Assembly: GCA_964529325.1 (NCBI GenBank)
Contig: CAZGWH010000001.1
Location: 2,872 to 66,871 of the forward strand
Source of the DNA: an uncultured bacterium
Lineage (GTDB): Bacteria; Fidelibacterota; Marinisomatia; SCGC-AAA003-L08; GCA-2689995
DNA length: 64,000 nucleotides
Direction of reading: 5' to 3'
How positions within the stretch are numbered: the first letter of the stretch is position 1; every line of letters begins with the position of its first letter. The notes below the pieces were generated by a model. It had not been told where the DNA came from. It made no database searches and saw nothing but the letters and a program-made list of their open reading frames with translations. Shown here one piece after another: positions 11,721 to 45,132 of the stretch. The position numbers were made by a program, and so were the translations under genes.

Positions 11721-14700
11721 TTAATTTTCTAAAATAATATTTATAAGTAATAATATATCCAATACATTTACTTCGATATCAAAATTCAAATCGGCTATTT
11801 CGTTAAATTCATTATTTATAATTAAATTCACAAATAATAATACATCTAAAACATTAACTTCATTATCTAAATTTATATCTCCTTCAAAACAAGAATAAAC
11901 ATGTATAAAATTTTCCATAGTATTTGAAGTTAATTCACCGTGTAAATCAAATATAGTTAATGTGACATCATACCAACCAATTTCATTTAATATAAAAATG
12001 GGATTTTCAGCAAATTGAACTTCTTCATTTCCAACCTCCCATTGCCACCATAAATTTACCCCAGTAGATGAGTTCAAAAATTGTACCGATTCACCTTCAC
12101 AAATTAAATTGGACTCAACATTAAAAATTGGTTGAGGTTCAGGTAAAATTTCATATTTTATTTCTTCTACTTCCATTTCAACAATTACTTGAGATGTAGA
12201 TCGAATCTGGATATAATAAAAATCATTAGGGTATAATAAGGAATCCAAACCATTTATGTTTTGCCAGGCTTCCCATTGAATAATACCTAAATCATCAAAA
12301 TACACATTAGAAGTTCCATTTTCGGGTGGTGAAGACCTAATTATCATATCTACAAAATTACCATTTTCAGGTATTTCAATTTCTCTTTCAAAATTAGTCC
12401 AGTCAAAATATCCATTTAATGTACCCATTAATGATTCATTGGCTATTGAATTTCCGCAATTTCTATCTGAATAATAATAAGTATTAATTCTGGCATTATT
12501 AGCATTATCACCTTTAACAACACCATGTACGGTATGCTCAAACTGATTCATAATTGGCACACAATATGAAATTTCGGTGATTGCATTATTTTCATCAAAA
12601 TAATTTCTAATCTGCTGTAAAGCATATTCACCATTATAAGAAATTGAATCATTTATAAATTCGGAATCATGTGGAATCATTCTCCAATAATTTATTCCAG
12701 GGTCCCAACAATCCATTGGTGGGTTATATTCAAAATCCCCCATCATTATAATTTCTCTGCCTAATCTAAATTCAAATTCACCATTATTTAAAAATTCTAA
12801 ATTTTTAATACTACCAACTCGTTCTAATTCAATTGGTTTAGAAATATTATATCCAGTATTATTATTTAATAGTGAATCAGAAAGAATATAATAAACATTG
12901 GATATTTGTTCATCAGGGTTAAATAAAACTTCAGCTATTTCATTTTCATAATCTACATGAAGATATGTATCAAGCTTACGAGACTTATAAGCTAAATTAT
13001 CTAAAATTCGATGAGCCAATTTTCCAGTTGCAGGTTTTGGGATATAATTTTGAATAAATACAGGTTGTATCCAATGCTTTGAAAACCCACTTTCATTTAT
13101 TTCTGAATTTATAATAATCGTTTGCCAAGTTTCAGGATATCGTTGGTCAAATACAAAATTTCCCAAAGAATGAGCAATTAAATTACCATTATATAGCTCA
13201 ATACCTTGTAAAACATGAGGATGATGATTTATGACCATATCAGCTCCAGCATCAATTGCAAAATGTCTAAATTCAATATTTTCTCTCGTTGGTTCTGTGA
13301 AAAATGGATTATATAGTTCATCCTCTCCATAATAGAATCGAGGTTCTAAAGAATATTCAGCTCCTGAATGAGTTTCTAATATAATTATATCACTTATTGA
13401 ATCAATATTTTCTATTTGTCTACTAACATTATTTTCATTCATTTTATAAAAACCAGGTTTATTATATCCAGAATCTAAATATGGTTGTTCATTATATTCT
13501 CTACCATCAATATTACTACTACCAATAATAGCAATATTTACACCTGATTTATTGATAAATACTGGTGACATTGCTTCATATTCATTTAATCCTGCACCAA
13601 AATATTTTATCTCAACAGAATCCAATTGATTTTGTGTTTCCAACATCCCATCGACCATATAATCTAAAAAATGATTATTCGCCAATGATACTACATCTAT
13701 ACCTGCATAATCCAAAGCAGAGATAGTTTCTGCCTTTGAATAAAATACAATAGATTTCGTTGGATGTGGATTCTCAGGAAAATCAGTTATAGGTGTTTCT
13801 AAGTTTGCAATAGAAATATCTGCAATATCACCAAAATATGGATTTATATATTCAAATAAATATTCAGAGCCACAAGTTGGTATTATACCATCATTACAAT
13901 TTTCATCATTTGTTGGTGCAGATATACAATTATATCTTCTACCCATCATAACATCACCAACAAAATTCATCTTAATTGGAAATGTAGATTCTCCTATATC
14001 TAAATGTACTGGGATTAAAGCGTATCCTAATAATCCTGTAGGATCTTTTACAATTAATGTCACACTATACAGATGGTCATCTTCTGTTAAATATGTATGT
14101 TGAGGATTTGAAATGGTGTCAGTTGAACCATCACCAAAACTCCAATAATAAATTATGCTATCTAAATCAGAATCAACGTCAACTACTTCTGAGTAAAATT
14201 GATAAGTTTGCGTCAATCTTCCAAATTCATCCACTTCTGAAATTACTTCTTCATCTATTGAAATCGCAACGAGAGGTGCAATAGGCAAATCTTCAGAAAT
14301 ATCAATTATATTATCAAAATAAATACTATCAGAAAACCATCCATCAGCATCATTTACATAAAACAACTTATTAATAATAGGTTCATAATTAAATCGATCA
14401 AACCAATCAATTCCAATCGGCAATACAACCTCTGCCCAATTATTTAATGTAAAATACCCTTGATAATAATTTTCAAAAAATTCTATATCTACCGATTGTG
14501 TCCCCCATATTGAATAATAAATTCTATTTCCAACAGTATCTTCAAATCCAATTGCTTGAATTTCTGAATTTAGATTATTTCCAATTAAAGATGAATACAT
14601 ATCCAAACTCCAAACAGATTGAGTGCTTACTTGAATTGAATCTAAAAGTTGGTCTTTCCATGTATTACCAAATAATACTAGCGAATATTGGGATAATGAA

Positions 14701-14951
14701 TCGGGAGTAAATTCTGAAATAACCCATTCATTAACATCAACATCATCTTCTCCATGAGAAATTAAATCTATAAACCCATTTTCAAAATCTTCTATAATTT
14801 CAGACCGAAGAATTGAGGAATTATTTATAAACTGAAATAAAACAGCTCTATTTATATTGTTCATTTCCTTTAGTTGTGTTTCAACATTTAGATTTACTGC
14901 AAATAAACTAGTAAATAAAACTACAAATAAGTAATTTAATTTGTTAATCAT
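11721..14951 (-). CDS. Secreted CapA-family metallophosphoesterase with PKD, CBM-like and C-terminal dockerin-like domains
   Basis: Signal peptide; FVGDVMMGR, ANLETP, SLANNH, HHPHVLQG, HSLGNFVFDQ motifs; PKD-like WSFGDG; tail GDINLDNEVNVLD...ADLNFDIEVNVLD. Confidence 0.85.
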   Translation of the reverse strand: MINKLNYLFVVLFTSLFAVNLNVETQLKEMNNINRAVLFQFINNSSILRSEIIEDFENGFIDLISHGEDDVDVNEWVISEFTPDSLSQYSLVLFGNTWKDQLLDSIQVSTQSVWSLDMYSSLIGNNLNSEIQAIGFEDTVGNRIYYSIWGTQSVDIEFFENYYQGYFTLNNWAEVVLPIGIDWFDRFNYEPIINKLFYVNDADGWFSDSIYFDNIIDISEDLPIAPLVAISIDEEVISEVDEFGRLTQTYQFYSEVVDVDSDLDSIIYYWSFGDGSTDTISNPQHTYLTEDDHLYSVTLIVKDPTGLLGYALIPVHLDIGESTFPIKMNFVGDVMMGRRYNCISAPTNDENCNDGIIPTCGSEYLFEYINPYFGDIADISIANLETPITDFPENPHPTKSIVFYSKAETISALDYAGIDVVSLANNHFLDYMVDGMLETQNQLDSVEIKYFGAGLNEYEAMSPVFINKSGVNIAIIGSSNIDGREYNEQPYLDSGYNKPGFYKMNENNVSRQIENIDSISDIIILETHSGAEYSLEPRFYYGEDELYNPFFTEPTRENIEFRHFAIDAGADMVINHHPHVLQGIELYNGNLIAHSLGNFVFDQRYPETWQTIIINSEINESGFSKHWIQPVFIQNYIPKPATGKLAHRILDNLAYKSRKLDTYLHVDYENEIAEVLFNPDEQISNVYYILSDSLLNNNTGYNISKPIELERVGSIKNLEFLNNGEFEFRLGREIIMMGDFEYNPPMDCWDPGINYWRMIPHDSEFINDSISYNGEYALQQIRNYFDENNAITEISYCVPIMNQFEHTVHGVVKGDNANNARINTYYYSDRNCGNSIANESLMGTLNGYFDWTNFEREIEIPENGNFVDMIIRSSPPENGTSNVYFDDLGIIQWEAWQNINGLDSLLYPNDFYYIQIRSTSQVIVEMEVEEIKYEILPEPQPIFNVESNLICEGESVQFLNSSTGVNLWWQWEVGNEEVQFAENPIFILNEIGWYDVTLTIFDLHGELTSNTMENFIHVYSCFEGDINLDNEVNVLDVLLFVNLIINNEFNEIADLNFDIEVNVLDILLLINIILEN

Positions 14952-15104
14952 AAAAAGAATTTACTCTGTTTTATAAATTAATTACACCTAAAGGAAAATA
15001 TAAAATTGTAACTAATATTTTTAAATAATACAATTAATTCTACTTGTTGAAAGGATTCATATTATTTTAAATTTCTATCAATTATTTTTCAAAGGAATTC
15101 TTCA

Positions 15105-17138
15105 ATGAAAGCATTATATTTAATCTTTTCAATTACTATTGCCTTTTCAAATCAGGTGAAAAATCAAAATCCCCATCTAAAACATTTTAATATTATAAGT
15201 GGTCAATTAAAAAAAATCACCAATAACCCAGAATATTTAATAAGGGAATACCTCTCTAATAATAAATTTCAATCAGGATATACAAATGAAATTGATTTTA
15301 AATTAAAAACAATTAATGAAGATAAAAATAATACTACACATTTAATTTTTCAACAATACTATTTAAATATCCCCGTTTTTGGAAAAACTATAAGAGCTCA
15401 TATAAATAAAAATAATCAATTATCATCAATTTCATCAAATATCGAGCAATTTAATATTCATATTCAACCAACTATACCAATTAAAGAGGCAATGAATAAA
15501 ATAAAACTTATCAAAAAAATTAACCGAAAATCATACATAAAATATAATCAATTGTATATTTATTTAAAAGAGAACAAACCATATTTAATTTATTCATTTG
15601 AATATGTTAATTTTGAAAATCCATATAAATATTTTATTGATGCACATTCAGGTGAAATTATTTTGGAGTTCCCACTTTCATTTCAAGATGGACCAACAAC
15701 AGGAAGTGGTATAAATTTAATGAATCAAAATATTGAAGAATTACAAGTTTATGAAGGAAATTCATATAATCCAATTGGAAATCAATCGACCCCATATTTG
15801 ATTTGTGAAGAATATTGTTGGGATTATGGTGATTGTGATGGTGAAAATTATAATGATTGTGTAATTGCACCACAACAAGGGGATTGTTCTAATGGTTTTT
15901 TGACCGATTGTAATGGTGAATGTTTTAGTGAATGGTATATGCAATTTCCTGGCGTAGGGAATGGGTTTTGTAATGACCCCTGGATTGCATTTAATGACTC
16001 TACAATTGCGACGGGTAGCTACAATTTGGTAGATGAAAGCAACTCTGAATTAGGTACAATTTATACTTTAAATAGTTATGGAGGATTTTATGAAAATATT
16101 TCATTGGTAAACAGTGAAACCTCAATTTTTAACAATAATGATAATAGCCTTTCACACCATTCAGGTGTAAGCGCTCATGATTATCAACGAAAAACTCTCG
16201 ATTATTTTTGGAACTACCATAATTATGCAGGAATAGATGGAAATGGTAAGCGAACAATTTCAGTTGTTAATTATTTTTCAAACTCAAGTATTAGTCAAAA
16301 CAACGCATTTTATAATGCATCACTAGATATTTTAACTTATGGATATGGTTCTGCAAGTTATCGACCATTTTGTGCGGGACTTGATGTTGTGACTCATGAA
16401 TTTAGTCACGGCTATACAGCACATACATCGGGTTTAATTTATAGAAATCAAGCCGGGGCATTAAATGAATCAATGTCTGATGTATTTGGTTATTTAGTTG
16501 AAGCTGTTTATCAAGATGGTGGTGACTGGTTACAAGCAGAAGATGTTCATGTTAATGGTGCAGGAAGAAGTTTTAATAACCCTCCTCAATTTGGGCAACC
16601 AGACCACAGAGATCATAATTATTTTGTACAATACAATCCTAACCCTCAATGGAACAATGATTTTGGAGGTGTACATACAAATTCAGGGATAACAAACAAA
16701 TTACTCTATTTAACAATTCAAGGTGATATACATTATAATATTGCCGTACCACCATTTGAAGAAGATATAGTCCAATCTCGAATTATTGCAGGAAATATAT
16801 GGTTCGCTTGGAATACATACTATCTAGACATAGAAGATGATTTTCAAATATCAAGAGATAAAATGCTTCAAGTTGTACAAGATATTTATCCTGGAAGATT
16901 AGATTATTTACAAACAGTTATAAATGGATGGGCATCACTTGGATGGGGAACTGAAATTGTATCTGGAGACTTTAATGAAGATTTAATTGTGAATATTCAA
17001 GATGTAATTATATTGATAAATATTATTTTAGGTAACTTCATACCAACTGAACATCAACAGTTGTTTGGTGATTTAAATCAAGATGGATTATTAAATATTC
17101 AAGATATACTTGAAATTGTTGTTATCATTATGGATTGA
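15105..17138 (+). CDS. M4 (thermolysin-like) metallopeptidase with propeptide, Cys-rich insert and C-terminal dockerin-like domain
   Basis: Signal peptide; FTP/PepSY-like propeptide; NNAF, HEFSH (HExxH), ALNESMSD, GVHTNSG; tail GDFNEDLIVNIQD...GDLNQDGLLNIQD. Confidence 0.92.
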   Translation: MKALYLIFSITIAFSNQVKNQNPHLKHFNIISGQLKKITNNPEYLIREYLSNNKFQSGYTNEIDFKLKTINEDKNNTTHLIFQQYYLNIPVFGKTIRAHINKNNQLSSISSNIEQFNIHIQPTIPIKEAMNKIKLIKKINRKSYIKYNQLYIYLKENKPYLIYSFEYVNFENPYKYFIDAHSGEIILEFPLSFQDGPTTGSGINLMNQNIEELQVYEGNSYNPIGNQSTPYLICEEYCWDYGDCDGENYNDCVIAPQQGDCSNGFLTDCNGECFSEWYMQFPGVGNGFCNDPWIAFNDSTIATGSYNLVDESNSELGTIYTLNSYGGFYENISLVNSETSIFNNNDNSLSHHSGVSAHDYQRKTLDYFWNYHNYAGIDGNGKRTISVVNYFSNSSISQNNAFYNASLDILTYGYGSASYRPFCAGLDVVTHEFSHGYTAHTSGLIYRNQAGALNESMSDVFGYLVEAVYQDGGDWLQAEDVHVNGAGRSFNNPPQFGQPDHRDHNYFVQYNPNPQWNNDFGGVHTNSGITNKLLYLTIQGDIHYNIAVPPFEEDIVQSRIIAGNIWFAWNTYYLDIEDDFQISRDKMLQVVQDIYPGRLDYLQTVINGWASLGWGTEIVSGDFNEDLIVNIQDVIILINIILGNFIPTEHQQLFGDLNQDGLLNIQDILEIVVIIMD

Positions 17139-17247
17139 TTAAATTTATTTAATTGTTCTAAAAATATATTTAGTAACCCTTTGTAATTTATTCTGTCCAA
17201 TTATTTATTAAATTCGTCAATTTCAATAATTATTTATAGGCATTTAA

Positions 17248-18687: not shown

Positions 18688-18688
18688 A

Positions 18689-24798: not shown

Positions 24799-27700
24799 AT
24801 GAAAATTATTAAATATATTATAATATTAATCGGAATTACAAAATTCCTAATTGCTCAGGACACGCCTGTAAATTTAGAAACAGAAACAATTGATCATAGT
24901 AGTATTCAATTAAATTGGAATATTTGGGATCCTGCAGACTCATATTTTAGTAATATTATCTTTATTTCAAATATTGAAGATAATGGGAATGGGACAATCG
25001 TGATGGAATTTTATCTTGAAAATGATGCAACTATTTCATCATTTAATTTATCTTTAGAATCAGATATTTATATTTCGGATGTTGAATTAACAAGTAATTC
25101 CTTAGATAATATTGGGTTTATTATAACACATGAGGAAGAAAATCTGGGTGACTTTACAATTAGTGGTAATAATACAGGGCAGAATATTCCTACAGATTTT
25201 GGAATACTTCTTCAATTAACAGGTAATTATGACCCTGACCATGGCGATGAATCTCAATTTTTCATCAATTATTCTGAGTCAAATTTTATAGATAATAATA
25301 TTGAACACCTATCATATAAATGGAAGAATATAGTTTGGGAAGTTGGCACTGGAATAGCTCCAGATATATGTGGAGATGGAGTGTGTACCATTAATGAAAA
25401 TTATAGTATTTGCCCTCAAGAATGTGAGTTAGATATTACATATTCAATTTATTTTGAAAATAATCCTCAATTAATTGCACAAACTTCATCAAATAATTCA
25501 ATTATTCAAAATCTTATTCCAATTACGCCATATTGTTTTGAAGTAGTTGCAACAGAAAATAATTCTAATGTAAATGAAATTTCAAATATTGCTTGTTCTA
25601 CTACTAATTGTGTTGAACAAAATTGGTGTCAAGATTTAGATGGCGATGGATATGGTAATCCTGCAATATTAATTTCTTCTTGCCAGCCAATATCTAACTT
25701 TGTCGCAGAATGTACTGATGAGGATGATAGTTCATATTGTTTATCAAATTCTTTTGATTTTTGTGGAGTGTGTAATGGACCAAATGAATGTAATTATGTT
25801 GAAGATCCAGATTACCCTGGAATTTGTCAATGTGGTAATGGTGAAGATTCATGTTGGACAGAAGGATCGACATCTTCAGGCTATATAATTGATTGTAGTG
25901 GTACTTGTAGTGGTGTGGCAGAAAAAGATGACTGTGGTGTGTGTACTGGAGGAAATACATTAAACTCATTTAATGGTTCTCAGGATTGTTATGATACTTG
26001 TTCCCCTACTGACCCTGAATCACTTTCTAGCTGTGATAATGGTTTAGGATTTAATGAACAGGGACAAGAATGTTTAAGCTACTTAGGTGCAGGAAGTGGT
26101 GTTGACCAATGTGGAATTTGTGGTGGAAATAATTCAGCATGTTTCCCTTATTTTGAAGGGCCTACAAATTTATTAGCTCAGGCAACAAATTTACAAATTG
26201 GACTTAGCTGGGACCCTGTTAATTTATGTGACCCCTATATTTATGATTGCGATTGGGGGGATGAAAATCAATCGTTGAGTGAAAACCCTATTAATTCAAA
26301 TTATTCAAGAAATGAAACAACATTAAATTCAAAACTTTCAATAGATCAAATTGTAGATGATGGACAAGGAACTGTTAGTTTTTATATTAATTTACAAGCT
26401 GATTCTGATGTATATAGTGCTCGATTTAATTTGGATATTTTAGATATATATGATACTCTTAGCGTTTTTCAAGATTTCCCAAATATAAATGATTTAGCGA
26501 CAAATACAACTGATTGTAGCGGAAACACCTGTGTTCAATTTGGGCAACCAGCTGGCGGAATTTTAGATAATGAAGATTTTGATTTTTCAGGATATACCCA
26601 AATGGATGGTAGTGCAAATTTGCAATCTTTTTCAGGTGACTTTATCAACCAAGAAATTCTTCAAGCAGGAACTACATTATTTAGAATGGATGCAACTTAT
26701 GATCCGATTGCATTAGCGGGAAAAGAACTTTTCGTAACTCATACATTGACTATACAAACAGAAAGTGATACCTTGGTTGTTTTTACTGAAAATTATGAAA
26801 ATTTAACTACACGATTTAATACTTCAGTTTGGCAAGTTGGTTTTGGTCTTTCTTCAATCTTTTCGTGTGGGGATGGAATTTGTCAAGAACCATTTGAAGA
26901 ACCAGGCGATGATTTAATGTCTGGAATTGATGGTTACCCAACTGCTTGTGGAACAGGTTTAACTGAATATTTTCTTGGAGTCGGAGTTATTGGAGATTGC
27001 ATCCCTCCTCAATTTTGTGGAGATGAGATATGTCAAGATGAAAGTTATTGTGAATTTGTTGATAATATTTTAGAATGTGGTTATACAGACGGTGCACCTC
27101 ATGAATATGATAATGAAAGTTGGCAAAATTGTAATTTAGATTGTTACTCGTGTGGAAATGGAATTTGTGATTGGGATAATTATGAAAATTACTGTGACGA
27201 AATTCCAAATAATGATATACCTGACTGTACAAATATTCCAATTAATTATTTATCTTGTATTGATGGTGAATTTTATTCAGAAATAAATGATGGGGTTTGG
27301 GGTGATTGCATGGAGCCATTTGAAGTAGTATATACCATCTATAAGGATAATGTAATTTATTCTTCTGAAGAATCATGTATTGCAAATTCAGGATATTGGC
27401 TTGGAGAATGTTTTACACCATTAATTTCTACTACAAATACACAATTCAATGATGTTGGTCTCGATTATTTAGAAGACCATTGTTATTTCATTGAAGCGAA
27501 ACAAGGTGAATTAACAACAACGATAGCTCAAAATTCGAATATATCTTGTGATCAGACAAATCCTCAAATTGGTGAATTGCCAGTAATTAGAAGAATTGAT
27601 GATATGCCTGGAGATCAAGGTGGATATGTGAAATTAACAGTTCAACGATCATATTCTGATAATGGTACTGTTGATTCACTATATCAAGTATATCGAAAAT

Positions 27701-28748: not shown

Positions 28749-30308
28749 TTGAGATTATTTATTTATTTTATTGCTTTAATGCTTTTTCTTTTAAATTGTG
28801 CAGCAATTGGACCAGCAACAGGAGGGCCTGAAGATAAACAAGGTCCATTCCTAATCTCTTCATCACCATATTCAGGTTCTATTAATATACCTTTAAACAA
28901 ACAGGTACAAATTATTTTTTCTGAACCAATTGACCCAAATTCAATTCATGCCTCAATTCAAATTATACCTAAAACAGAATTCAAAACGATAATACGAAAA
29001 AATAATTTATTTATTATTCCTAAAAATGAATGGAATAAAAATCTTCCAACGCGAATTATTATTAATAGAAATATAAGAGACTTTCAAGATAATATAATTG
29101 CTTCACCAATAAATATTATTTTTTCAACTTCATCAAGTCTAGGTAAAGGTGTAATTTCTGGTAAATTAATAAATACTGAAATGGATCAAATTTTTGAAAT
29201 TGGGTTATTCGAATATCCACCTCAAGATACTTTAATTCCTATTTTAAAAACTCAATCAAATCAACATGGTGAATTTTTATTTAATTTTCTAAATTTAAAT
29301 AAATATTTTATTATTGCTTCATCAAATGAAATAATTAATATTTCTGAAGAAATTAAATTTTCAAATTATGGGTTATTACCATTCGATTATTTAGAAATTA
29401 AAAATGATATTGATTCAATAATAACAACAATATATATTGATGACCCTTTGCCAAAATTAAAAATTCAATCAGCACAATTATTAGGTAAACAATATGGTAA
29501 ATTAATTTATTCAAATGGTAATGAAGAACTTTTTTATTTTTCATTAATCGATAAAATTTCTTATCCCGAAAATTTAACTATTTCCAATTATGGAATAGAC
29601 TCATTAAAAATTATTAGCCAACTGAGTAATAGATTAAATAAATATTATACTCCCCCATTTTTCATTTCAAATCAAACAATAATTGATACAATTGCACCTA
29701 AAGTAGAAAATCACAATATTCAAAATAATAAATATTTAATAGAATTTAATGAACCAATTTCAATTAATTATATATCCAATACAATTTCTAGTGCTTTCTA
29801 CCTTAATTCTGATTCTAACCAAATAGATATAAAATTAAATGTAGTAACCCCATTTTCAATTGAAACATCCATTCTGCCTGATAATATTGAAAATATTTTT
29901 CTACCTAAAAATATCATTATTGATAAAGATAATAATGTTTTTCCTGATTCTCTAACTACTTTTTCTTTTATAAAACCTCTTGAAGACATAAATGAAATTA
30001 ATATTAATTATGGACAACTATCAGGTGAAATTACCAATTTCAAAAACGCTGTAATGATTGAAGCAATAAACATACAGGAAAAAACTGTAAATTATACAAA
30101 GGTTATAAATAGTGAATTTCAATTTTTAGAATTAATTCCAGGTGCATATAATCTTAGAGCGTTTGAAATTTTAAATGAAATTAATGATTCAATTTATTTT
30201 TCTGGAACAATTAGTCCATATAAAAGAGCTGGTAAATTTGTTATCTATCCTGAAAAAATTGATATTCGAGGTAGATGGGAAATTGAAGGAATAAATATAA
30301 GGTTTTAA
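28749..30308 (+). CDS. Ig-like (Big_5-type) domain lipoprotein
   Basis: Lipobox LLNC followed by AAIGPATGGPEDKQGP and IIFSEPID, typical of an FCB lipoprotein family. Confidence 0.75.
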   Translation: MRLFIYFIALMLFLLNCAAIGPATGGPEDKQGPFLISSSPYSGSINIPLNKQVQIIFSEPIDPNSIHASIQIIPKTEFKTIIRKNNLFIIPKNEWNKNLPTRIIINRNIRDFQDNIIASPINIIFSTSSSLGKGVISGKLINTEMDQIFEIGLFEYPPQDTLIPILKTQSNQHGEFLFNFLNLNKYFIIASSNEIINISEEIKFSNYGLLPFDYLEIKNDIDSIITTIYIDDPLPKLKIQSAQLLGKQYGKLIYSNGNEELFYFSLIDKISYPENLTISNYGIDSLKIISQLSNRLNKYYTPPFFISNQTIIDTIAPKVENHNIQNNKYLIEFNEPISINYISNTISSAFYLNSDSNQIDIKLNVVTPFSIETSILPDNIENIFLPKNIIIDKDNNVFPDSLTTFSFIKPLEDINEININYGQLSGEITNFKNAVMIEAINIQEKTVNYTKVINSEFQFLELIPGAYNLRAFEILNEINDSIYFSGTISPYKRAGKFVIYPEKIDIRGRWEIEGINIRF

Positions 30309-36784: not shown

Positions 36785-36812
36785 AATATCTCCTTTGTTT
36801 AATTATTTTATT

Positions 36813-37038: not shown

Positions 37039-38640
37039 TTATTCTAAAATAATATTTACAATTGAAATTATATCAGAAATATTTACTTCATTATCCAAAT
37101 TTAAATCACTTAATGCTATTTGAGCATCGGATAATATAGAATTGCCCAACACATATTCAACAATTATAATTATATCTAAAATATTTAATATTGCATCATT
37201 ATTTACATTTCCCATAATAACAGAAATACATGTATTCATTGAAAATGGTGGGATGGAAATTTGATTTAATCCTGCTTCATAGGATCTATTTATAGAATCA
37301 TACCCATCAATTTCTTTCCTTAAAGTATCAGCTGTCCAATGAGTCCATAATAAGTCATTATTAAATGCATTTTCCACTGAAATAATAAGAGTCGTATCAG
37401 AGACATTTGTAATAATTCCAGATTCGTCAAAATCATTATTAAATTTCCAACCAAATAACCGAGGACAATTAATAAACTTTTCAATTCCGCCATTTGTTAC
37501 AAACATAATTGTATCAGAGAAGGATTCAGGAAATTGTAATTGTATATTTTCAGTCATATCCTTTGCCATCCAATCATATAACATCGCTGAAAATGCAGTT
37601 GCCCTTTTTTGAAAATGTTCATCTTCGCTATTATTAATAGCATCAAACCCTGTTGGCCCACCTACATTATGTGCAAGTAACATAGTAACCAAATTATTTC
37701 TCATTATATTGTCAGTCATTGATGATAAAAATAAGGAATGTAACCAAGTATTTCGATAAATATGTTCTTCTGATTTATCAAATAAATTATATTCTGTTAC
37801 CCAGATTTCATGATTTTGAATTAGTGCAGTTGTATCCTGAAATCCTCTCCATTCTTCTATTCGAGGGATATCAAAATATGGATAGCTAATAAATTGTCTA
37901 TCTGTATATCCCGCATGAGAATCTTTCATATATAAATATACATGCCAAGTTAAAGCATCAAATGAATCCGATTGAATATTTGCATATAAACTATCATTCC
38001 AATGAGTAGCTCTTTCAGAGTCCCCTCTATTCCCTCCAGTTATTGTTATTTTGGCTTCTGGTAATATAGTTTGTAGTGAATCAATATATATTTGGCAATC
38101 GCGAGCATAATCACCAGCTGTAGGGTATTTCGCAATATAAAATTCATTAGGATGATTTATTTCACTACCTAATTCTAAATTTCTAAATTGCATACCATTT
38201 TGCATCGCATTAGTAACAGATTCCATTGAGGTTCTAACATCCGTAGTAATCATATTCATAATAAAAATACCTTCTGCCCCAGTAACATTTAACGCATTTT
38301 GAAAATGAATAGGACGAATATCGATTTGAGGTAGGTTTATCCAATTATTTGGTAAAGTATCAACAGGAAGAGTATCATTAATTATTGGCTCATCTAAAAA
38401 CCAACCCGTTGCCCAATCCCAATATGAGGCACCTGAAGGGTATCGGAGGATATCAGGTTTCATTGTTGCCACAGAATCAGTAAACTCTCCATTAATCCAA
38501 GATGGCCCACGCACAGTATTTCCATTAAAACCATATTTTGGAACAGAACGAGTTTCCCCCAATGAAACTTCAATATCTTGAGAAATACTTATTGAAACCA
38601 GAAAAACTAAATTAACTAAAAGAAACCTCATAATTACCAT
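37039..38640 (-). CDS. Secreted clan GH-A-like glycoside hydrolase (GH79/GH51-like) with C-terminal dockerin-like domain
   Basis: Signal peptide; LRYPSG..YWDW, LELGSE, WHVY, IWVTEYN; tail GNVNNDAILNILD...SDLNLDNEVNISD. Confidence 0.72.
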   Translation of the reverse strand: MVIMRFLLVNLVFLVSISISQDIEVSLGETRSVPKYGFNGNTVRGPSWINGEFTDSVATMKPDILRYPSGASYWDWATGWFLDEPIINDTLPVDTLPNNWINLPQIDIRPIHFQNALNVTGAEGIFIMNMITTDVRTSMESVTNAMQNGMQFRNLELGSEINHPNEFYIAKYPTAGDYARDCQIYIDSLQTILPEAKITITGGNRGDSERATHWNDSLYANIQSDSFDALTWHVYLYMKDSHAGYTDRQFISYPYFDIPRIEEWRGFQDTTALIQNHEIWVTEYNLFDKSEEHIYRNTWLHSLFLSSMTDNIMRNNLVTMLLAHNVGGPTGFDAINNSEDEHFQKRATAFSAMLYDWMAKDMTENIQLQFPESFSDTIMFVTNGGIEKFINCPRLFGWKFNNDFDESGIITNVSDTTLIISVENAFNNDLLWTHWTADTLRKEIDGYDSINRSYEAGLNQISIPPFSMNTCISVIMGNVNNDAILNILDIIIIVEYVLGNSILSDAQIALSDLNLDNEVNISDIISIVNIILE

Positions 38641-38727
38641 TATTAAATTAGGGATAATTTATGTAAGTTTTAAATCACTGCATAATAAAAAAACAGAGAA
38701 TTGATGTTTTAATAACAGCAAAGCAAG

Positions 38728-40059
38728 TTAATTACCAATTATAATTCCAACTATTTGAATAATATCTATAACATTAATCTCATCATCTGAATTGATATCC
38801 ATTAAAATATTGCAATCTTCACTTTCAATTATACAGCTAACTGTTAAAACTATATCAAGTATATTAATATTCCCATCTAAATTTATATCGCCCGATAAAT
38901 CATTAATATCTCTAACGCATCTCACTGCATTAAATACATAATGGATATCACCCTGAGGCCCCATAGAGAAAGGATAGTCATCTGGATTTCCCGTTTTATA
39001 ATCACTTCGTTGTGCCCCTGCTCCATGCACATCCATTAACTGATTATTGATAATACCCTGAGCTTCACCAAAAGCTATATATGCAGATGTTGAATAAGGG
39101 TTTGGACTGTTAATATGTGTAGTTCCTGTCCAAAAATATGGATATTGGTTTGGATTATCAAACGGATCTAAAATTTCTGTTGTATAAAATATTGGGTTTA
39201 TAGCAGGTGAATTTGTAATATCAGGAGACCTAGAATAATCGACAATACTGTGTAATTCTTTTGGGTTTGGTAACCGCCAATCATCATGCCCTCCTAATTC
39301 AAGATTTTCAGCAAAATTTAATGCATTTTCCCAATCATAAAAATTGCCATCATCAGCTTGTTGCCACATTAATCCTGTATTTAAATCACTTATTGTTTCA
39401 TCATTATTATTTATAAAATTATTTGTACCATATTCTACATTTCCTCGAACCAATCTAAAATACATTTGATTTAATTGAGAAAATTGGGGTGGTTTAAATT
39501 TAGGGTACCCTTTAATTCGACCATCAACAAAATTTACTCCAAATATAGTTTCTACCTCAAACATTGTTTCCCCAACATATTCAGTTGACGACCATGTTTG
39601 TGCATCTATTTCCCGCTCACCTATAGAAACATCTCCTAGTGGTTGGTCAAAATAATTAGTATCAATGTACATATATATAGCTTCTTCCCCAAGAGACTCA
39701 CCCGTAAATAATATAAGGGAATACAATTCTTTTAAGGTGGGAACTCGCCAATCAGAATAACCACCAAGCGTAAGGGTATCTGCTTTATTAATTGCATCTA
39801 AATTGTTAATTTTAGGACCCATATAATGTTGTCACATCAACCCCGTTATATTATCTGTAATGGTTCCATCTCCATTGTCAGTGTATGATGGTTGATTGCC
39901 CAAGTAACTTGCATCTTGACCATAGAATGCTTCGTCAATATCGGGTTCGGTAATTATTTGATTATTATTATAAAATGTTTCAACACCAGTATCTACAATT
40001 GGGTATGGATTTGACTGAGAAAATACAATTGAACATAAAAATATAAATGAATACTTCAT
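38728..40059 (-). pseudogene. DUF1566 (Lcl C-terminal-like) secreted protein with dockerin-like tail, interrupted by an in-frame TGA
   Basis: Track ORFs 39832..40059 and 38728..39822 share a frame: TGLM-TGA-QHYMGPK; second repeat has TGLMWQQ; DWRVPT/DWRLPN motifs. Confidence 0.8.
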
Positions 40060-40143
40060 TTTAACTCCAAATTAATAATGAGTTCGACAAAGAATTTAAT
40101 AAAAGGTTAACTAAAAATAATTATTATAACAATTAATATTATC

Positions 40144-40503: not shown

Positions 40504-40515
40504 CCATACCCTAAC

Positions 40516-41619
40516 TCAATCCATTTCTCCATTTTTCCCAAGCATATTAAATAATTTTTTTAATTTAATCTTTATTGAGTTATTATTTTCATTTTGAGAT
40601 TTACGATTGTTATTATTATTAAATGATGTATCAAAATTAACAATATTTTTAGGAAAAGCACTTTTTATTTTATCCCAAATTTCAACCCATGTATTCGATA
40701 AAGTTGGTAATATATCGTCAATAAATATTTGTCTAGAATAAATATAAAAATCTTTTGATGTTTTTGTAAATGTTTTTTTTTCAATTTCTAGATCCCAAGT
40801 TCCATAAGATCTACATCTTTGTATTGTTGCTTTACCAATAGATGTTGTTAATATGCCTGCACCAATACCTTGAATTATATCATCTGCGATTCGGCTTACA
40901 ACTGGAATTCCACCCATCATTTTTTCAGTAAATTTTTCGGTAAAATTTAACATATTTACAGAGGTAATAATTTTTAAAACATCTTTTAAATAAATGACTG
41001 TTTGAGAGAAAGGTGGTCTCTGATTATATAGGTTAACCAATTGATTAAACATTTTAAAATTTCTATAAATGATAAAATATATATCAAATGATCTAAAAGG
41101 ACTGAGCGTTACACCTGCGATTGAATCTCTAACTGTATTTTTAACAATTAATTCTGCTTTTTCATTTAATATAATTAATACAGGTTGAATTATTTTGATA
41201 TCAATCGTATCTATGTACTCTTTATGACTAAAATTGTTTGAATTGCTACTGATATGTTTAAATTCAGTTTGTAATTTTAATTTATAAGCATGACTAATAT
41301 TTGGATTTTTTAATAATTTTTTTGAATAATTTTCTATAAATAATTTATATTTATTTTTAAACTTAACAGAATTAATACCTCCATATTTTTGCGGTAAAGG
41401 GATATGTATAGATCTTTTATATGTTATAAATATCCTTAAAAATGGAAAAACTGCCCATAATAATAATCCAATTATAATAATTATAAATAAAATTGCAATT
41501 ATCGAGTTAAAATTAGCTAAAGTTTGGTAGGCTCTTAATAATTCAATGAAAATAAATGATAAAAAGAGAATCGAAATAAGTATTATAATTCGTTTAAAGT
41601 ATTTAATTAATTTTAACAT
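40516..41619 (-). CDS. YcjF/DUF697-like membrane protein
   Basis: Two N-terminal TMs; TLSPFRSFD and QGIGAGILT segments. Confidence 0.6.
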   Translation of the reverse strand: MLKLIKYFKRIIILISILFLSFIFIELLRAYQTLANFNSIIAILFIIIIIGLLLWAVFPFLRIFITYKRSIHIPLPQKYGGINSVKFKNKYKLFIENYSKKLLKNPNISHAYKLKLQTEFKHISSNSNNFSHKEYIDTIDIKIIQPVLIILNEKAELIVKNTVRDSIAGVTLSPFRSFDIYFIIYRNFKMFNQLVNLYNQRPPFSQTVIYLKDVLKIITSVNMLNFTEKFTEKMMGGIPVVSRIADDIIQGIGAGILTTSIGKATIQRCRSYGTWDLEIEKKTFTKTSKDFYIYSRQIFIDDILPTLSNTWVEIWDKIKSAFPKNIVNFDTSFNNNNNRKSQNENNNSIKIKLKKLFNMLGKNGEMD

Positions 41620-41667
41620 AACCCCCCTCTTACCATAATCAAACTTATCTTAAAAATTAATAACCAT

Positions 41668-42939: not shown

Positions 42940-42944
42940 TTAAA

Positions 42945-43994
42945 CTATTCTCCTAAAATCAAATTAACCAATAAAACTATATCAATCACGTTTAAACTAT
43001 TATTACTATTCATATCACCAATTTCATCATATTCACCCAATAATACTAAATTAACAACAGCCACTAAATCAAGAATATTAATTATATCATCGTTATTTAA
43101 ATCGCCTAATATGGTCAAATAAAATTGTAACTTTAGCCCAACGGGTCTATGGTCAGAAACATGTTGATCATATTCATTTAATCCGCCATCTAAATATTCA
43201 TCTATTTTAATAGTTTGAATATCTGAATTAGCGTCATTAAAATTATCAAAAAGTTCATTTGAAATTAAAATATGGTCAAGATGAGATGGCCACCCAGGGT
43301 ATGACCACCCTGAGCTATTTCCTTCTGCAATTTCTAAATCAGAAAAAAGATAATTTTCATTATCTTCTAAAAACATCTGAAAAACATTATTTGAAATTTC
43401 ATCCGTTAAAATATCATTTAAGTCTCCTAAAATAATTACATTTTCAAATTCTAAATAATTATCAATATATTCTTTTAGTAAATTATTTGCAGTATATCTT
43501 CTAAATTCTTCATCTCCATCATTTCCTAATTCTAAAATTCCATCTCCACAACATTTATAATGGTTATTGATAACGAAGATATTTTCTCCATTGAAGTTCA
43601 AATCCATAACCATTGGTGAGCGAGGGAATGCATTCCAATATTCAGAAGTAATATAGATTTCATACATATTATTAATTTCGATTGTATTTGTATTATAAAT
43701 ATATGCTAACCCTGCAAACCAATTAGATTCGTAATACCCTGCATAATTAGTGAGTCCACTTAGCATTTGATCAAACATATCGGTATCATCAACTTCTTGA
43801 ATTGCAATTAAATCTACATCAAGAGCTTGAATAATTTCAGTTACATAATCTACTGTCGTTTGGTCATTTTTTGGAAACCATTCAATATTCCAAGTTATCA
43901 CTTCAAAGGTTTCATTTGAACCAAAATTTAAATCATTTAAATCCTGTGCAATCATAAAACAGACTAAAATAATAAAAATCAATATTTTTTTCAT
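42945..43994 (-). CDS. Secreted endonuclease/exonuclease/phosphatase-family protein with dockerin-like tail
   Basis: TWNIEWF, IAIQEV, ILGDLN, HLDHIL, SDHRPV; tail GDLNNDDIINILD...GDMNSNNSLNVID. Confidence 0.9.
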   Translation of the reverse strand: MKKILIFIILVCFMIAQDLNDLNFGSNETFEVITWNIEWFPKNDQTTVDYVTEIIQALDVDLIAIQEVDDTDMFDQMLSGLTNYAGYYESNWFAGLAYIYNTNTIEINNMYEIYITSEYWNAFPRSPMVMDLNFNGENIFVINNHYKCCGDGILELGNDGDEEFRRYTANNLLKEYIDNYLEFENVIILGDLNDILTDEISNNVFQMFLEDNENYLFSDLEIAEGNSSGWSYPGWPSHLDHILISNELFDNFNDANSDIQTIKIDEYLDGGLNEYDQHVSDHRPVGLKLQFYLTILGDLNNDDIINILDLVAVVNLVLLGEYDEIGDMNSNNSLNVIDIVLLVNLILGE

Positions 43995-43995
43995 A

Positions 43996-45132
43996 TCATT
44001 CTCCTAAAATCAAATTTACTAAAAGTACTACATCTAAAACATCTATTGAACTATCTTCATTCATATCTGCGAAAACAGCAGATTCATTATTCAATATTAA
44101 ACCAACTAATAATACAATATCTAACACATTAATCAAAGAATCTTGATTAATATCTCCTAAATAAAATTCATCTTCACAACTTCCATCATCATTTAAAGCA
44201 TACGGATTATAATTTATTGAAGTATCATCCATACAACCTACAATTCGTGGGTAAAAATATAAATTCGCTGGGATTCCAAAAGTCTCTTCACTTGTTGTAA
44301 AATATCCAAACCCTTCAGAATGCCACGCAACAGCTTCACCTTGTGGTTCCATGATATACTCAACTTGAGTAGGTGAATATAATGCATCAATTATGCTTTC
44401 CCTTTCATCCCATTCATAATGAAAAATATGTTGGTAGGATTTCAATAATATTTCTCTTCCATCCATAGAAATATCTCCAGCCGTAATCCAAGTTAATTGA
44501 TTATTAACCTGATTTTGGTTAGGATACATATCAAAACCACCTAATAATATTGCAGTATTTAATGATTCAGTTTGTTGTGGAAATGGTAATGCGAAAACAA
44601 AAGTTTCATTTTCTCTTTTGGAAATAGTATAGATATCCAATGTATTTGGATCAACCATAAGTGTTTCTGAATCTCTATTTCCATTTGGATATTCATAGGA
44701 AATCGTTTCAATATTAACAATATTTTCAGTTATTGGGTTTTGAATTGATAAGACATCAGGTTCTAAAAATCGATGGATATATTTAACATTATATTGGCTA
44801 TTATTATCACCAATATCACCAATATAAATATAATAATCAGTTCCATTTATATTTGGAGAAATTGAAATATCTTCCCAATCTCGTGCTGTAATATTGGGTA
44901 AAATAAATTTACCTAAATGCTCACCATTCTGATTTAATGCAAATATACAACTCTCACCTCCCGAGTCATTATGCGTCCAAAATACATTCTCATTTTTTGA
45001 ACTCGCAACTAAACCCGATGCCTCATTAATGTCATTATTTTCAAGTATTCCCCAATTTTCTCGTTCACCAAATATTGGTTCTGTGCCGAAAATTAATGAC
45101 ATAAATAAAACTATATAAATTATTATTTTCAT
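43996..45132 (-). CDS. Secreted beta-propeller-like protein with GC.D...NY...DDGSC repeat and dockerin-like tail
   Basis: EASGL, WTHNDSGG, DWEDI, DSETL, QGEAVAW; GCMDDTSINYNPYALNDDGSC; tail GDINQDSLINVLD. Confidence 0.75.
   Translation of the reverse strand: MKIIIYIVLFMSLIFGTEPIFGERENWGILENNDINEASGLVASSKNENVFWTHNDSGGESCIFALNQNGEHLGKFILPNITARDWEDISISPNINGTDYYIYIGDIGDNNSQYNVKYIHRFLEPDVLSIQNPITENIVNIETISYEYPNGNRDSETLMVDPNTLDIYTISKRENETFVFALPFPQQTESLNTAILLGGFDMYPNQNQVNNQLTWITAGDISMDGREILLKSYQHIFHYEWDERESIIDALYSPTQVEYIMEPQGEAVAWHSEGFGYFTTSEETFGIPANLYFYPRIVGCMDDTSINYNPYALNDDGSCEDEFYLGDINQDSLINVLDIVLLVGLILNNESAVFADMNEDSSIDVLDVVLLVNLILGE

What the first reader, a model, noticed from the sequence alone, without database searches (positions are those of the whole stretch)
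11721..45132. A dockerin-tagged, non-cellulolytic secretome: seven unrelated proteins share one module
Seen: CapA-family phosphoesterase (11721), M4 protease (15105), Cys-rich giant (24799), GH-A-like hydrolase (37039), DUF1566 (38728), EEP nuclease/phosphatase (42945) and a propeller-like protein (43996) all have signal peptides and a duplicated G-D-x-N-x-D-x-x-(I/V)-N-x-x-D-(I/V) Ca-loop/helix module, at the extreme C-terminus in six of them. Loop positions 10/11 are mostly hydrophobic (VL, IL, VI; also IQ, IS, VS). Known: in cellulosomes these positions set cohesin specificity (e.g. Ser/Thr in C. thermocellum). Inference: a cellulosome-like surface complex for protein, nucleic acid and polysaccharide scavenging with one shared specificity code, or a dockerin repurposed as a sorting/anchoring tag.
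Basis: partly seen in the sequence, partly recalled or inferred. Interest (0 to 1): 0.82.

Follow-up and report, generated by a model that had tools for sequence, protein, structure and literature searches.

The report
Marine SAR406 cohesin–dockerin enzyme-docking system
A chromosome piece from an uncultured marine Marinimicrobia (SAR406) bacterium encodes six secreted non-cellulolytic proteins (most of them enzymes) with true dockerin tags, plus a giant cysteine-rich protein carrying two hidden cohesin modules that probably dock them; similar cellulosome-like systems have already been inferred in related phyla, so this is a new example, not a new principle.

Summary
A duplicated Ca-loop/helix module occurs in exactly the seven named proteins out of 42 ORFs (12 motif hits against 0.5 expected). 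In six it is a clear C-terminal type-I-like dockerin: a profile of the six hits only solved dockerins in the PDB, and relatives carry PF00404. The seventh, in the giant, is degenerate and internal. Corrections: the DUF1566 signal peptide lies upstream of an in-frame TGA, and the 'GH-A-like' and 'propeller-like' labels could not be verified. The organism is a Candidatus Neomarinimicrobiota (SAR406). The new result is that the Cys-rich giant is not just another cargo. It contains two divergent cohesin modules, each nested in an fn3 domain. Pfam does not see them, but an AlphaFold model matches solved cohesins (TM about 0.70), and a 27-module profile hits a solved cohesin at E=3.9e-4. In 79 marine loci this module is fused to T9SS sorting domains (29 loci) or sits next to or fused with dockerins (25 loci). 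Precedents exist in Cloacimonadota (2021) and Planctomycetes (2019), so this is a new member of a known kind.

The parts
11721..14951 (-). CapA/PGA_cap-family protein (1076 aa): signal peptide, PKD, PGA_cap, long unannotated region, C-terminal dockerin
   Evidence: Pfam PGA_cap 4.5e-59, PKD, Dockerin_1 28.5 bits; N-terminus MINKLNYLFVVLFTSLFA
11724..11897 (-). Dockerin module of the CapA-family protein (aa 1019-1076); loops DINLDNEVNVLD and DLNFDIEVNVLD
15105..17138 (+). M4 (thermolysin-like) metalloprotease precursor (677 aa): FTP, PepSY, M4 and M4_C domains, C-terminal dockerin
   Evidence: Pfam Peptidase_M4_C 6.8e-28, Peptidase_M4 1.4e-20, FTP, Dockerin_1 28.9 bits
16950..17135 (+). Dockerin module of the M4 protease (aa 616-677); loops DFNEDLIVNIQD and DLNQDGLLNIQD
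24799..28722 (+). Cys-rich giant (1307 aa from ATG 24799; 57 Cys counted on the 1326-aa TTG-start ORF), the candidate scaffoldin: signal peptide, fn3 with nested cohesin M1, Cys-rich CGxC/DGDG repeats, fn3 with nested cohesin M2, further Cys-rich region, fn3, degenerate dockerin, unknown C-terminal beta domain
24955..25353 (+). Cohesin-like module M1 (aa 53-185), nested between strands B and C of the first fn3 and followed by a 'VWEVG..CGDGVC' knot
   Evidence: AF2 model pLDDT 72.5. Foldseek: 2w1n cohesin+FN3 at E 1.9e-7; cohesins 2xdh TM 0.70 and 6kgd_A TM 0.69. Family HMM 2.4e-39
26332..26847 (+). Cohesin-like module M2 (aa 512-683), same family with a roughly 45-aa insertion
   Evidence: Aligns in register with M1; iterated family HMM 3.1e-28
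28219..28440 (+). Degenerate dockerin-like segment of the giant (aa about 1141-1214): expanded first loop, canonical second loop DMNFDDIVNVSD, Cys-containing linker
   Evidence: Linker shared with the true dockerin of P0125. The AF2 model here is helical but low-confidence
28441..28719 (+). C-terminal beta domain of about 93 aa ending in a conserved '...NSYK'; function unknown
   Evidence: pLDDT 64-87 but no Foldseek match at E<=1e-3; no hit with Pfam or my T9SS-CTD HMM
28749..30308 (+). Big_5 Ig-like putative lipoprotein (519 aa, N-terminus ...MLFLLNC), directly downstream of the giant. The pairing is conserved in a 56%-identical ortholog locus, making it a possible partner or anchor (inference)
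   Evidence: Pfam Big_5 2.8e-11; sequence; synteny in L091
37039..38640 (-).
   Evidence: Only Dockerin_1 at 17.9 bits; the PDB hits are all dockerins; nothing in NCBIfam
37042..37224 (-). Dockerin module of the 533-aa protein (aa 473-533); loops NVNNDAILNILD and DLNLDNEVNISD
38728..40059 (-). DUF1566/Lcl_C protein reading frame, interrupted by an in-frame TGA at 39832-39834. The signal peptide is in the upstream 75-aa part and the dockerin at the C-terminus of the 364-aa part
   Evidence: Pfam Lcl_C 3.5e-33, Dockerin_1 18.7 bits; TGA, identical in four assemblies
38731..38907 (-). Dockerin module of the DUF1566 protein (aa 306-364); loops DINLDGNINILD and DINSDDEINVID
42945..43994 (-). EEP-family nuclease/phosphatase (349 aa) with a weak ExeM/NucH-like match, signal peptide and C-terminal dockerin
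   Evidence: Pfam Exo_endo_phos 8.6e-12; NCBIfam ExeM_NucH_DNase 1.7e-7, below cutoff
42948..43121 (-). Dockerin module of the EEP protein (aa 292-349); loops DLNNDDIINILD and DMNSNNSLNVID. No Pfam hit at E<=0.01, but 52% identical to the neighbouring gene's module
43996..45132 (-).
   Evidence: Dockerin_1 24.4 bits; orthologs L005 (88%), L006 and L007 (52-53%) retain the module
43999..44172 (-). Dockerin module of the 378-aa protein (aa 321-378); loops DINQDSLINVLD and DMNEDSSIDVLD

Best explanation
This is a non-cellulosomal cohesin-dockerin system in a marine Neomarinimicrobiota (SAR406) bacterium. Six Sec-exported proteins end in a compact type-I-like dockerin made of two Ca-binding loops, each followed by a very hydrophobic helix. 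They are an M4 protease, an EEP nuclease/phosphatase, a CapA-family phosphoesterase-like protein, a DUF1566 protein and two unidentified proteins. The 1307-aa Cys-rich giant has no recognised catalytic domain and acts as the scaffoldin or adaptor. It displays two divergent cohesin modules, each inserted into an fn3 domain, onto which the dockerins are proposed to bind in a Ca-dependent way. This would hold degradative enzymes for protein, nucleic acid and glycan together near the cell. The giant's own degenerate dockerin, its unknown C-terminal domain or the conserved downstream Big_5 lipoprotein would tie the assembly to the cell envelope. In related marine loci the same cohesin family is anchored by a T9SS C-terminal domain or a lipoprotein-like signal. 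Shown: the modules, their family relationships, the predicted cohesin fold and the co-occurrence. Inferred: binding, stoichiometry, surface location and anchoring.
For: Dockerins: motif restricted to seven proteins and far above chance; Pfam Dockerin_1 at or near threshold in five; six-module profile hits only solved dockerins and PF00404-annotated proteins; the module is retained in orthologs at 52-88% identity. Cohesins: the AF2 model of giant aa 20-271 (pLDDT 72.5) matches the C. perfringens cohesin-FN3 construct 2w1n (E 1.9e-7) and many cohesins, including 2xdh at TM 0.70 and rmsd 3.4 A over 134 columns, 6kgd_A at 0.69 and 2jh2 at 0.69. The 27-module profile has one significant PDB hit, cohesin 5n5p_A, at E 3.9e-4 over 105 residues, and cohesins 1tyj and 2y3n are in the top four. 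Scaffoldin-like architectures in relatives: 13 modules + T9SS CTD (P0133); 4 modules + Dockerin_1 ending '...NVLDIVLIVNLILG' (P0161); signal peptide + 1 module + CTD (P0143, P0145, P0146). Co-occurrence: of 79 marine loci with the module, 25 encode dockerins, 5 have both in one ORF and 29 fuse the module to a CTD, with recurrent gene orders of dockerin-enzyme followed by a small cohesin anchor. The neighbours are InhA-like and M14 peptidases, ASST-like and PNGase-F-like proteins. The giant-Big_5-ManC gene order is conserved at 56% identity. Published analogues: PMC8542988 and PMC6461901.
Against: There is no binding evidence of any kind. Pfam's Cohesin model misses the modules; only 1 of 27 reaches E 0.015. 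The model rests on a 6-sequence alignment with moderate confidence, and CBM2 structures also match, though less well (TM 0.55-0.63, rmsd about 6 A). The sequence link to cohesins is a single hit at E 3.9e-4. The giant has only two cohesins for at least six cargo proteins, and no recognised anchor. No anchoring cohesin was found in the window or within 10 kb either side. The route by which dockerin-only proteins cross the outer membrane of a diderm is unknown. Co-occurrence was not compared with a measured background rate of dockerin genes in such genomes. The taxonomy of the 79 loci is unknown.
Confidence: 0.55

Rival explanations
1. The dockerins are real, but the giant is not their partner. 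Its beta-modules would be carbohydrate- or particle-binding modules (CBM-like) or adhesin domains, and the dockerins would bind cohesins encoded elsewhere in the genome, for example small cohesin-T9SS-CTD or lipoprotein anchors like those seen in related loci.
For: CBM2 structures also match the model. Pfam does not call the modules cohesins. Small single-cohesin anchors exist in marine relatives. The giant resembles large Cys-rich adhesin-like proteins (P0125, P0126).
Against: Cohesins give the better structural matches, with higher TM and lower rmsd. The only significant sequence hit is a cohesin, and no CBM family is hit by any of the 27 modules. Those small anchors carry this same module family, so the family's association with dockerins holds in any case.
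Confidence: 0.2
2. The C-terminal dockerin works mainly as an export or sorting tag in this diderm. It could be an alternative C-terminal signal, or a 'hitch-hiker' tag that binds a cohesin-CTD carrier in the periplasm so that the folded complex leaves through the type IX secretion system.
For: Six of the seven modules sit at the extreme C-terminus, where T9SS signals normally sit. None of the seven has a recognisable T9SS CTD, yet they must cross an outer membrane to reach polymers. Small signal peptide-cohesin-CTD genes lie directly downstream of dockerin-enzyme genes. T9SS CTDs occur in the phylum (L007).
Against: Related loci encode proteins with both a dockerin and a separate Por_Secre_tail (L013:7168-9840), so the dockerin is not itself the T9SS signal. 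No T9SS machinery was seen in the window. No precedent for hitch-hiking through T9SS was found in the papers searched.
Confidence: 0.12
3. The modules are partner-less Ca-binding EF-hand-like tails that stabilise the proteins, promote self-association or bind a non-protein ligand such as capsule or polysaccharide. Non-cellulosomal dockerins in many genomes have no identified cohesin.
For: Surveys find dockerins without cohesins in many non-cellulolytic genomes (Peer et al. 2009, as cited in PMC10066038; own knowledge). The helices here are unusually hydrophobic, with V/I-N/G at positions 17/18.
Against: A cohesin-like family co-occurs with, and is fused to, this dockerin flavour. The module is conserved in orthologs at 52% identity.
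Confidence: 0.1

Closest known systems
Cellulosome-like complex inferred in Cloacimonadota 'Ca. Stygibacter' (Williams et al. 2021, PMC8542988)
   Same: An FCB-group, uncultured, aquatic diderm. Signal-peptide enzymes, both peptidases and glycosidases, carry C-terminal dockerins. There is a large non-catalytic scaffoldin with cohesins. T9SS-CTD anchoring is seen there in the scaffoldin itself, and here in relatives of the module family. Both were proposed for polypeptide and polysaccharide degradation. A link to PGA/capsule appears in both: a CapA-family dockerin protein here.
   Different: The phylum differs (Neomarinimicrobiota). The cohesins here are too divergent for Pfam or InterPro-type detection and are nested inside fn3 domains. 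The window's scaffoldin has only two cohesins, a degenerate dockerin of its own, no CBM2/3 and no recognisable CTD. The cargo includes a nuclease and a DUF1566 protein.
'Planctosome' hypothesis in freshwater Planctomycetes Nemodlikiaceae (Andrei et al. 2019, PMC6461901)
   Same: A non-cellulosomal cohesin-dockerin assembly proposed for peptide degradation in an aquatic Gram-negative. An adaptor protein carries both dockerin and cohesin. The anchoring protein contains thrombospondin-type-3-like repeats, comparable to the giant's DxDGDG/Cys-rich repeats.
   Different: Anchoring there is through a lamin-tail domain. The peptidase families differ (M12B, M14). The cohesins there are detectable by standard models. 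Both cases are computational inferences only.
Clostridial cellulosome (e.g. C. thermocellum CipA with type I dockerin enzymes)
   Same: A duplicated 22-residue Ca-loop/helix dockerin at the C-terminus of secreted enzymes, with near-symmetric segments compatible with dual binding. A scaffoldin with cohesins, plus a scaffoldin-borne dockerin for a second tier of attachment.
   Different: There are no cellulases, no cellulose-binding CBM3 and no SLH or sortase anchor. The organism is a diderm. Recognition positions are hydrophobic (V/I-L/I at 10/11, V/I-N/G at 17/18) instead of Ser-Thr and Lys-Arg (own knowledge of C. thermocellum). The linker between the loops is shorter, with loop-to-loop spacing of 29-34 residues.
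Non-cellulosomal cohesins with solved structures (Archaeoglobus fulgidus 2xdh; C. perfringens GH84C cohesin-FN3 2w1n and 2jh2)
   Same: These are the best structural matches to module M1. In C. perfringens a cohesin is likewise paired with an FN3 domain and serves to assemble non-cellulolytic enzymes.
   Different: In 2w1n the cohesin and FN3 are in tandem, whereas here the cohesin is inserted within the fn3. Sequence identity is only 12-16%.

Membership tests
Dockerin type I (Pfam PF00404) | Two tandem segments of about 22 residues, each a 12-residue EF-hand-like Ca loop (D/N at positions 1, 3, 5, 9 and 12) followed by a helix | tested here: met
   Met in six proteins, each with two complete segments. 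The giant has one canonical loop and one expanded loop.
Dockerin type I (Pfam PF00404) | Score at or above the Pfam gathering threshold (22.9 bits) | tested here: inconclusive
   28.5, 28.9 and 24.4 bits pass. 17.9 and 18.7 fall below. The EEP protein and the giant have no hit at E<=0.01. All six clear modules are mutually alignable at 33-52% identity.
Dockerin type I (Pfam PF00404) | Profile-level homology to experimentally solved dockerins | tested here: met
   The A1 profile gives 20 PDB hits, all dockerins, best E 8.4e-6, aligned across both segments.
Dockerin type I (Pfam PF00404) | Ca-dependent folding and binding to a cohesin | not testable with these tools
   Needs ITC, ELISA or native PAGE with and without EDTA.
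Cohesin (Pfam PF00963) | Nine-stranded beta-sandwich jelly-roll fold | tested here: met
   The AF2 model of M1 (pLDDT 72.5) matches solved cohesins at TM 0.61-0.70 and rmsd 3.4-4.1 A. Caveats: shallow alignment, and the CBM2 fold also matches at a lower level.
Cohesin (Pfam PF00963) | Recognition by the Pfam Cohesin HMM | tested here: not met
   No hit for the giant, its orthologs or relatives. Only 1 of 27 modules reaches E 0.015. I therefore call these modules 'cohesin-like / divergent cohesin', not members of PF00963 as currently defined.
Cohesin (Pfam PF00963) | Sequence-profile similarity to a solved cohesin | tested here: met
   The A5 profile hits 5n5p_A (R. flavefaciens ScaB cohesin) at E 3.9e-4 over 105 residues. 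It is the only significant hit among 177,635 sequences. The result is marginal but specific.
Cohesin (Pfam PF00963) | Occurs with dockerins in the same genomes, loci or proteins | tested here: met
   25 of 79 loci, 5 of them with both modules in one ORF. P0161 and P0158 carry Dockerin_1. In the window, six dockerin genes lie within 13 kb upstream or 16.5 kb downstream of the giant.
Cellulosome (sensu stricto) | Dockerin-borne cellulases or hemicellulases (GH5/9/48 and similar) and a cellulose-binding CBM on the scaffoldin | tested here: not met
   No such families were found in the window's dockerin proteins or in the giant. This is not a cellulosome; it only works like one.
T9SS cargo (C-terminal sorting domain PF18962/TIGR04183) | A C-terminal beta-sandwich CTD of about 80 residues | tested here: not met
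   None of the seven proteins is hit by Pfam or by a local CTD HMM at E<=10. Relatives of the cohesin family do have it. The window holds only a 69-aa CTD remnant at 8957-9166.

The most novel reading that the evidence does not exclude
Marine FCB-group bacteria, including the abundant SAR406 clade, may use a previously unrecognised, Pfam-invisible cohesin subfamily (motifs '(I/V)AGFQFDL...GFSLTG...W.VG.G', often nested in fn3). Anchored by T9SS C-terminal domains or lipid, it would assemble, and possibly co-export by 'hitch-hiking' through T9SS, mixed sets of dockerin-tagged peptidases, nucleases and glycan-active enzymes on the cell surface. That would be a general 'scavengosome' for particulate organic matter in the dark ocean.
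Probability: 0.2. Interest if true: 0.75.

Novelty: new member of a known kind. Interest (0 to 1): 0.5.

Why it matters
Marinimicrobia (SAR406) are among the most abundant uncultured bacteria of the deep and oxygen-poor ocean, and they are thought to live on sinking organic matter. If their exoenzymes are docked on a scaffold and not released, the products of hydrolysis stay with the cell. That bears on models of 'selfish' versus 'sharing' polymer degradation and of carbon remineralisation. On the practical side, the work defines a cohesin subfamily that standard domain models miss. Genome surveys reporting dockerins without cohesins in FCB-group and other marine bacteria may therefore be undercounting partners. 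It also gives a small set of defined constructs (M1, M2 and six dockerins) for direct binding tests.

Tried and rejected
1. BLASTP self-comparison of the giant found no internal repeat, and phmmer of the giant against the PDB found nothing useful. The duplication became visible only with profile HMMs.
2. Pfam at relaxed thresholds on the giant's segments and its orthologs gave no Cohesin, CBM or CTD hit.
3. The indexed homolog search with the module profile found only 5 proteins. The exhaustive search was needed.
4. The AF2 model of the giant's C-terminal 280 aa (fn3, dockerin-like segment, terminal domain) was poor (pLDDT 52), and Foldseek gave no match at E<=1e-3. The terminal domain and the fold of the giant's dockerin-like segment therefore remain unresolved.
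I repeated it with a 6-module subset.
6. The 10-kb flanks on each side of the window contain only housekeeping genes and no anchor cohesin.
7. NCBIfam and PDB sequence searches did not identify the catalytic domains of the 533-aa and 378-aa proteins. A Pfam retry on sub-ranges failed on a frame error.
8. An alternative genetic code (TGA=Trp) as the explanation for the DUF1566 TGA is rejected. TGA ends 9 of 42 ORFs, and all 194 Trp codons counted are TGG.
9. Peer et al. 2009 could not be read because it is not held. It is cited only through papers that cite it.
10. I considered a membrane-anchor role for the hydrophobic C-terminal helices and rejected it. The helices are about 11 residues long, too short to span a membrane, and they align with dockerin helices.

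Full report
**What the window is.** The 64-kb window has 28% GC and carries ordinary bacterial housekeeping genes: infB, nusA, truB, ribF, lexA, purF, hutH, alaS, lgt and a flagellin. Identical proteins occur on 119-kb contigs from several marine metagenome samples. The closest genome in GTDB is a 'Candidatus Neomarinimicrobiota' (Marinimicrobia/SAR406) MAG, NIOZ-UU64, at 88% amino-acid identity for the 378-aa protein. Two more distant genomes match at 52-53%; one of them is also labelled Neomarinimicrobiota.

**Checking the observation.** There are 12 hits, against a mean of 0.52 and a maximum of 4 in 1000 shuffles.
- Six proteins carry two loop-plus-helix segments, with the second helix ending at the C-terminus.
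- Loop positions 10/11 are VL, IL, VI, IQ, IS and VS, as stated. Positions 17/18 are V/I followed by N/G/E/S/Y.
- Pfam Dockerin_1 passes its threshold in three proteins and is sub-threshold in two. It is absent at E<=0.01 in the EEP protein and the giant.
- The six modules align with one another at 33-52% identity.
- Their joint profile hits 20 PDB sequences, all dockerins, with best E 8.4e-6.
- The same profile finds 800 database proteins, and nearly all of the 120 listed carry PF00404.
- Orthologs of the 378-aa protein at 52-88% identity keep the module.

The six are therefore genuine type-I-like dockerins.

**Corrections to the observation.**
- The giant's module is degenerate and internal. 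My six-module HMM does not detect it.
- It is tied to true dockerins only through a shared linker motif with a Marinimicrobia protein, P0125, whose C-terminal dockerin passes Pfam.
- The DUF1566 signal peptide lies upstream of an in-frame TGA.
- The 'GH-A-like' and 'propeller-like' labels could not be confirmed.

**The new finding: the giant carries cohesins.** Reading the giant's sequence, I saw two beta-rich stretches, each followed by 'VW(E/Q)VG..CGDG(V/I)C'. BLAST and Pfam saw nothing there. A profile built from orthologs showed that they form one module family, also repeated four times in a 2252-aa relative that ends in a T9SS sorting domain.

- **Fold.** An AlphaFold2 model of giant residues 20-271 (six-sequence alignment, pLDDT 72.5) shows an fn3 domain split by a nested beta-sandwich of about 130 residues. 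Foldseek against the PDB returns the C. perfringens cohesin-FN3 construct 2w1n as the top hit (E 1.9e-7). Many cohesins follow: the non-cellulosomal A. fulgidus cohesin 2xdh (TM 0.70, rmsd 3.4 A), CaCohA2 6kgd_A (0.69), 2jh2 (0.69) and 5n5p_C (0.61). CBM2 structures match less well, at TM 0.55-0.63 and rmsd about 6 A.
- **Rarity and architectures.** An exhaustive HMMER search of 1.84 billion representatives found only 32 proteins at E<=1e-3. Their architectures look like scaffoldins. P0133 has 13 modules plus a T9SS CTD. P0161 has 4 modules plus a dockerin ending '...NVLDIVLIVNLILG'. P0143, P0145 and P0146 are a signal peptide, one module and a CTD. P0158 combines a module, LRR and a dockerin.
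- **Family membership of M1 and M2.** After local iteration, the giant's M1 (aa 53-185) and M2 (aa 512-683) score 2.4e-39 and 3.1e-28 in the family.
- **Sequence link to cohesins.** A 27-module profile searched against all PDB sequences has a single significant hit, a solved R. flavefaciens cohesin (5n5p_A, E 3.9e-4, 105 aligned residues). Two further cohesins are among the top four. Scanned individually, 1 of the 27 modules reaches Pfam Cohesin at E 0.015, and none hits any CBM family.

I conclude that these are divergent cohesins lying below the reach of the current Pfam model.

**Association with dockerins elsewhere.** A metagenome scan with the conserved '(I/V)AG(F/Y)QFD(L/V)' strand returned 79 marine loci. 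With local HMMs, all 79 contain the module and 25 also encode a dockerin. Five have both modules in one ORF, and 29 fuse the module to a T9SS CTD.

Two gene orders recur. In the first, one or two dockerin proteins are followed by a small signal peptide-cohesin-CTD gene (L010, L011, L013). In the second, an ASST-like dockerin protein, a 157-aa cohesin with a lipoprotein-like N-terminus and a PNGase-F-like protein with two dockerins sit together (L071, L072, L079, L082). The dockerin neighbours are InhA-like and M14 peptidases and ASST-like proteins, so they too are non-cellulolytic. One protein carries both a dockerin and a separate Por_Secre_tail.

I did not measure a background rate of dockerin genes, and the taxonomy of these loci is unknown. 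Their GC content (27-43%) overlaps the window's.

**The window's own system.**
- Only the giant has cohesin modules. None of the seven proteins has a T9SS CTD, and the window holds only a 69-aa CTD remnant.
- A Neomarinimicrobiota relative does encode a clear CTD protein (L007, E 3e-25).
- The 10-kb flanks add nothing.
- The giant is followed directly by a Big_5 putative lipoprotein and ManC. This order is conserved around the 56%-identical ortholog.
- The giant's C-terminal 93 residues fold confidently as a beta domain but match nothing.

**Mechanism proposed.** Six Sec-exported proteins dock through their dockerins onto the giant's two cohesins. The giant is then tied to the envelope by its own dockerin-like segment, its terminal domain or the neighbouring lipoprotein. 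Only the modules, the predicted fold, the homology and the co-occurrence are shown. Binding, location and anchoring are inferred. I put this at about 0.55.

Rivals:
- The giant's modules are CBM-like, and the true cohesins lie elsewhere in the genome (0.2).
- The dockerin is an export or hitch-hiker tag (0.12).
- The dockerins are partner-less Ca-binding tails (0.1).

**Comparison with what is known.**
- Non-cellulosomal dockerins and cohesins are long known (Peer et al. 2009, cited in PMC10066038 and PMC6461901; not readable here).
- A 'planctosome' for peptide degradation was proposed for Planctomycetes (PMC6461901).
- The closest case is in Cloacimonadota. A cellulosome-like complex was inferred there with dockerin-tagged peptidases and glycosidases and a 3,755-aa cohesin scaffoldin anchored by a T9SS CTD (PMC8542988).
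- No paper in the library mentions dockerin together with Marinimicrobia or SAR406.

The finding is therefore a new member of a known kind. Its added elements are a cryptic, fn3-nested cohesin subfamily and its T9SS- or lipid-anchored forms in marine metagenomes. It is not a cellulosome in the strict sense, because cellulases and cellulose-binding modules are absent.

**Verdict.** Interest is moderate at 0.5. The system is ecologically relevant and directly testable, but the concept has been anticipated.

Noticed in passing
window 39832-39834 (minus strand), within 38728-40059: The DUF1566/Lcl_C gene is split by an in-frame TGA that replaces the Trp of a 'TGLMW' motif; the same protein has an intact copy of that motif at residue 228. 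The TGA is identical in four independent assemblies. TGA is a normal stop in this genome (9 of 42 ORFs end in it, and all 194 Trp codons counted are TGG). This is either a population-fixed nonsense mutation (pseudogene) or a read-through site. The downstream 364-aa part lacks a signal peptide.
   Followed up: partly
window 38728-41619 versus L005: The DUF697-YjbR-DUF1566 block is absent from the 88%-identical relative NIOZ-UU64. There the aminotransferase gene is followed after about 0.4 kb by the 533-aa dockerin gene. This is a strain-level insertion or deletion that includes the interrupted gene.
   Followed up: partly
window 8957-9166 (minus strand): A 69-aa ORF ending '...NGVYFVKFIPNKPSQSQKVIILK' matches the C-terminal half of a T9SS sorting domain (local HMM, E 6e-5). 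It looks like a truncated remnant of a T9SS cargo gene between the MORN-repeat gene and lexA.
   Followed up: partly
window 24799-25611 (giant aa 20-271) and about 26200-27400: The cohesin-like modules are inserted between strands B and C of fn3 domains and return through a small Cys knot ('CGDGxC...CPxEC'). This domain-in-domain arrangement recurs 13 times in P0133 and 4 times in P0124.
   Followed up: partly
window about 25650-26200 and 26900-27500 (giant aa about 285-470 and 700-900): Cys-rich repeats of the type 'DxDGDGxG' and 'CGxCxGxN...DCxGxC'. They are shared with very large marine proteins made almost entirely of such repeats (P0125 from Marinimicrobia; P0126 from TARA). Their function is unknown.
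   Followed up: no
window 28749-30308 (+); L091 14066-15634: A Big_5 Ig-like protein with a lipoprotein-like N-terminus (…MLFLLNC) follows the giant at a gap of 27 nt, then ManC. The giant-Big_5-ManC order is conserved around a 56%-identical ortholog, which suggests a functional pair.
   Followed up: partly
window 28441-28719; L013 about 9270-9600: A beta domain of about 90-110 residues directly follows the dockerin, both in the giant (ending in a conserved '...NSYK') and in a metagenomic dockerin+CTD protein ('...GAIELTLSHNEEF...'). It could be a dockerin-associated accessory (X-like) module. It has no structural match.
   Followed up: partly
window 17248-21945 (+); L091 3136-7819: A TldD/PmbA peptidase pair followed by a 644-aa protein with no family hit lies next to the M4-dockerin gene. 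The trio is conserved in the 56% relative, where the M4 and CapA dockerin genes are replaced by a TetR regulator and acyl-CoA dehydrogenase genes.
   Followed up: no
L082 4567-5037; also L071, L072, L079: A small 157-aa single-cohesin protein has a lipoprotein-like signal (…FLFLFNC) and no CTD. It is flanked by an ASST-like dockerin gene and a PNGase-F-like gene with two dockerin modules. This suggests a lipid-anchored version of the cohesin anchor.
   Followed up: partly
window 45166-46146 (minus strand): A ChaN/Tiki-superfamily (Cofac_haem_bdg) protein is encoded directly upstream of the 378-aa and EEP dockerin genes on the same strand. Any relation to them was not examined.
   Followed up: no
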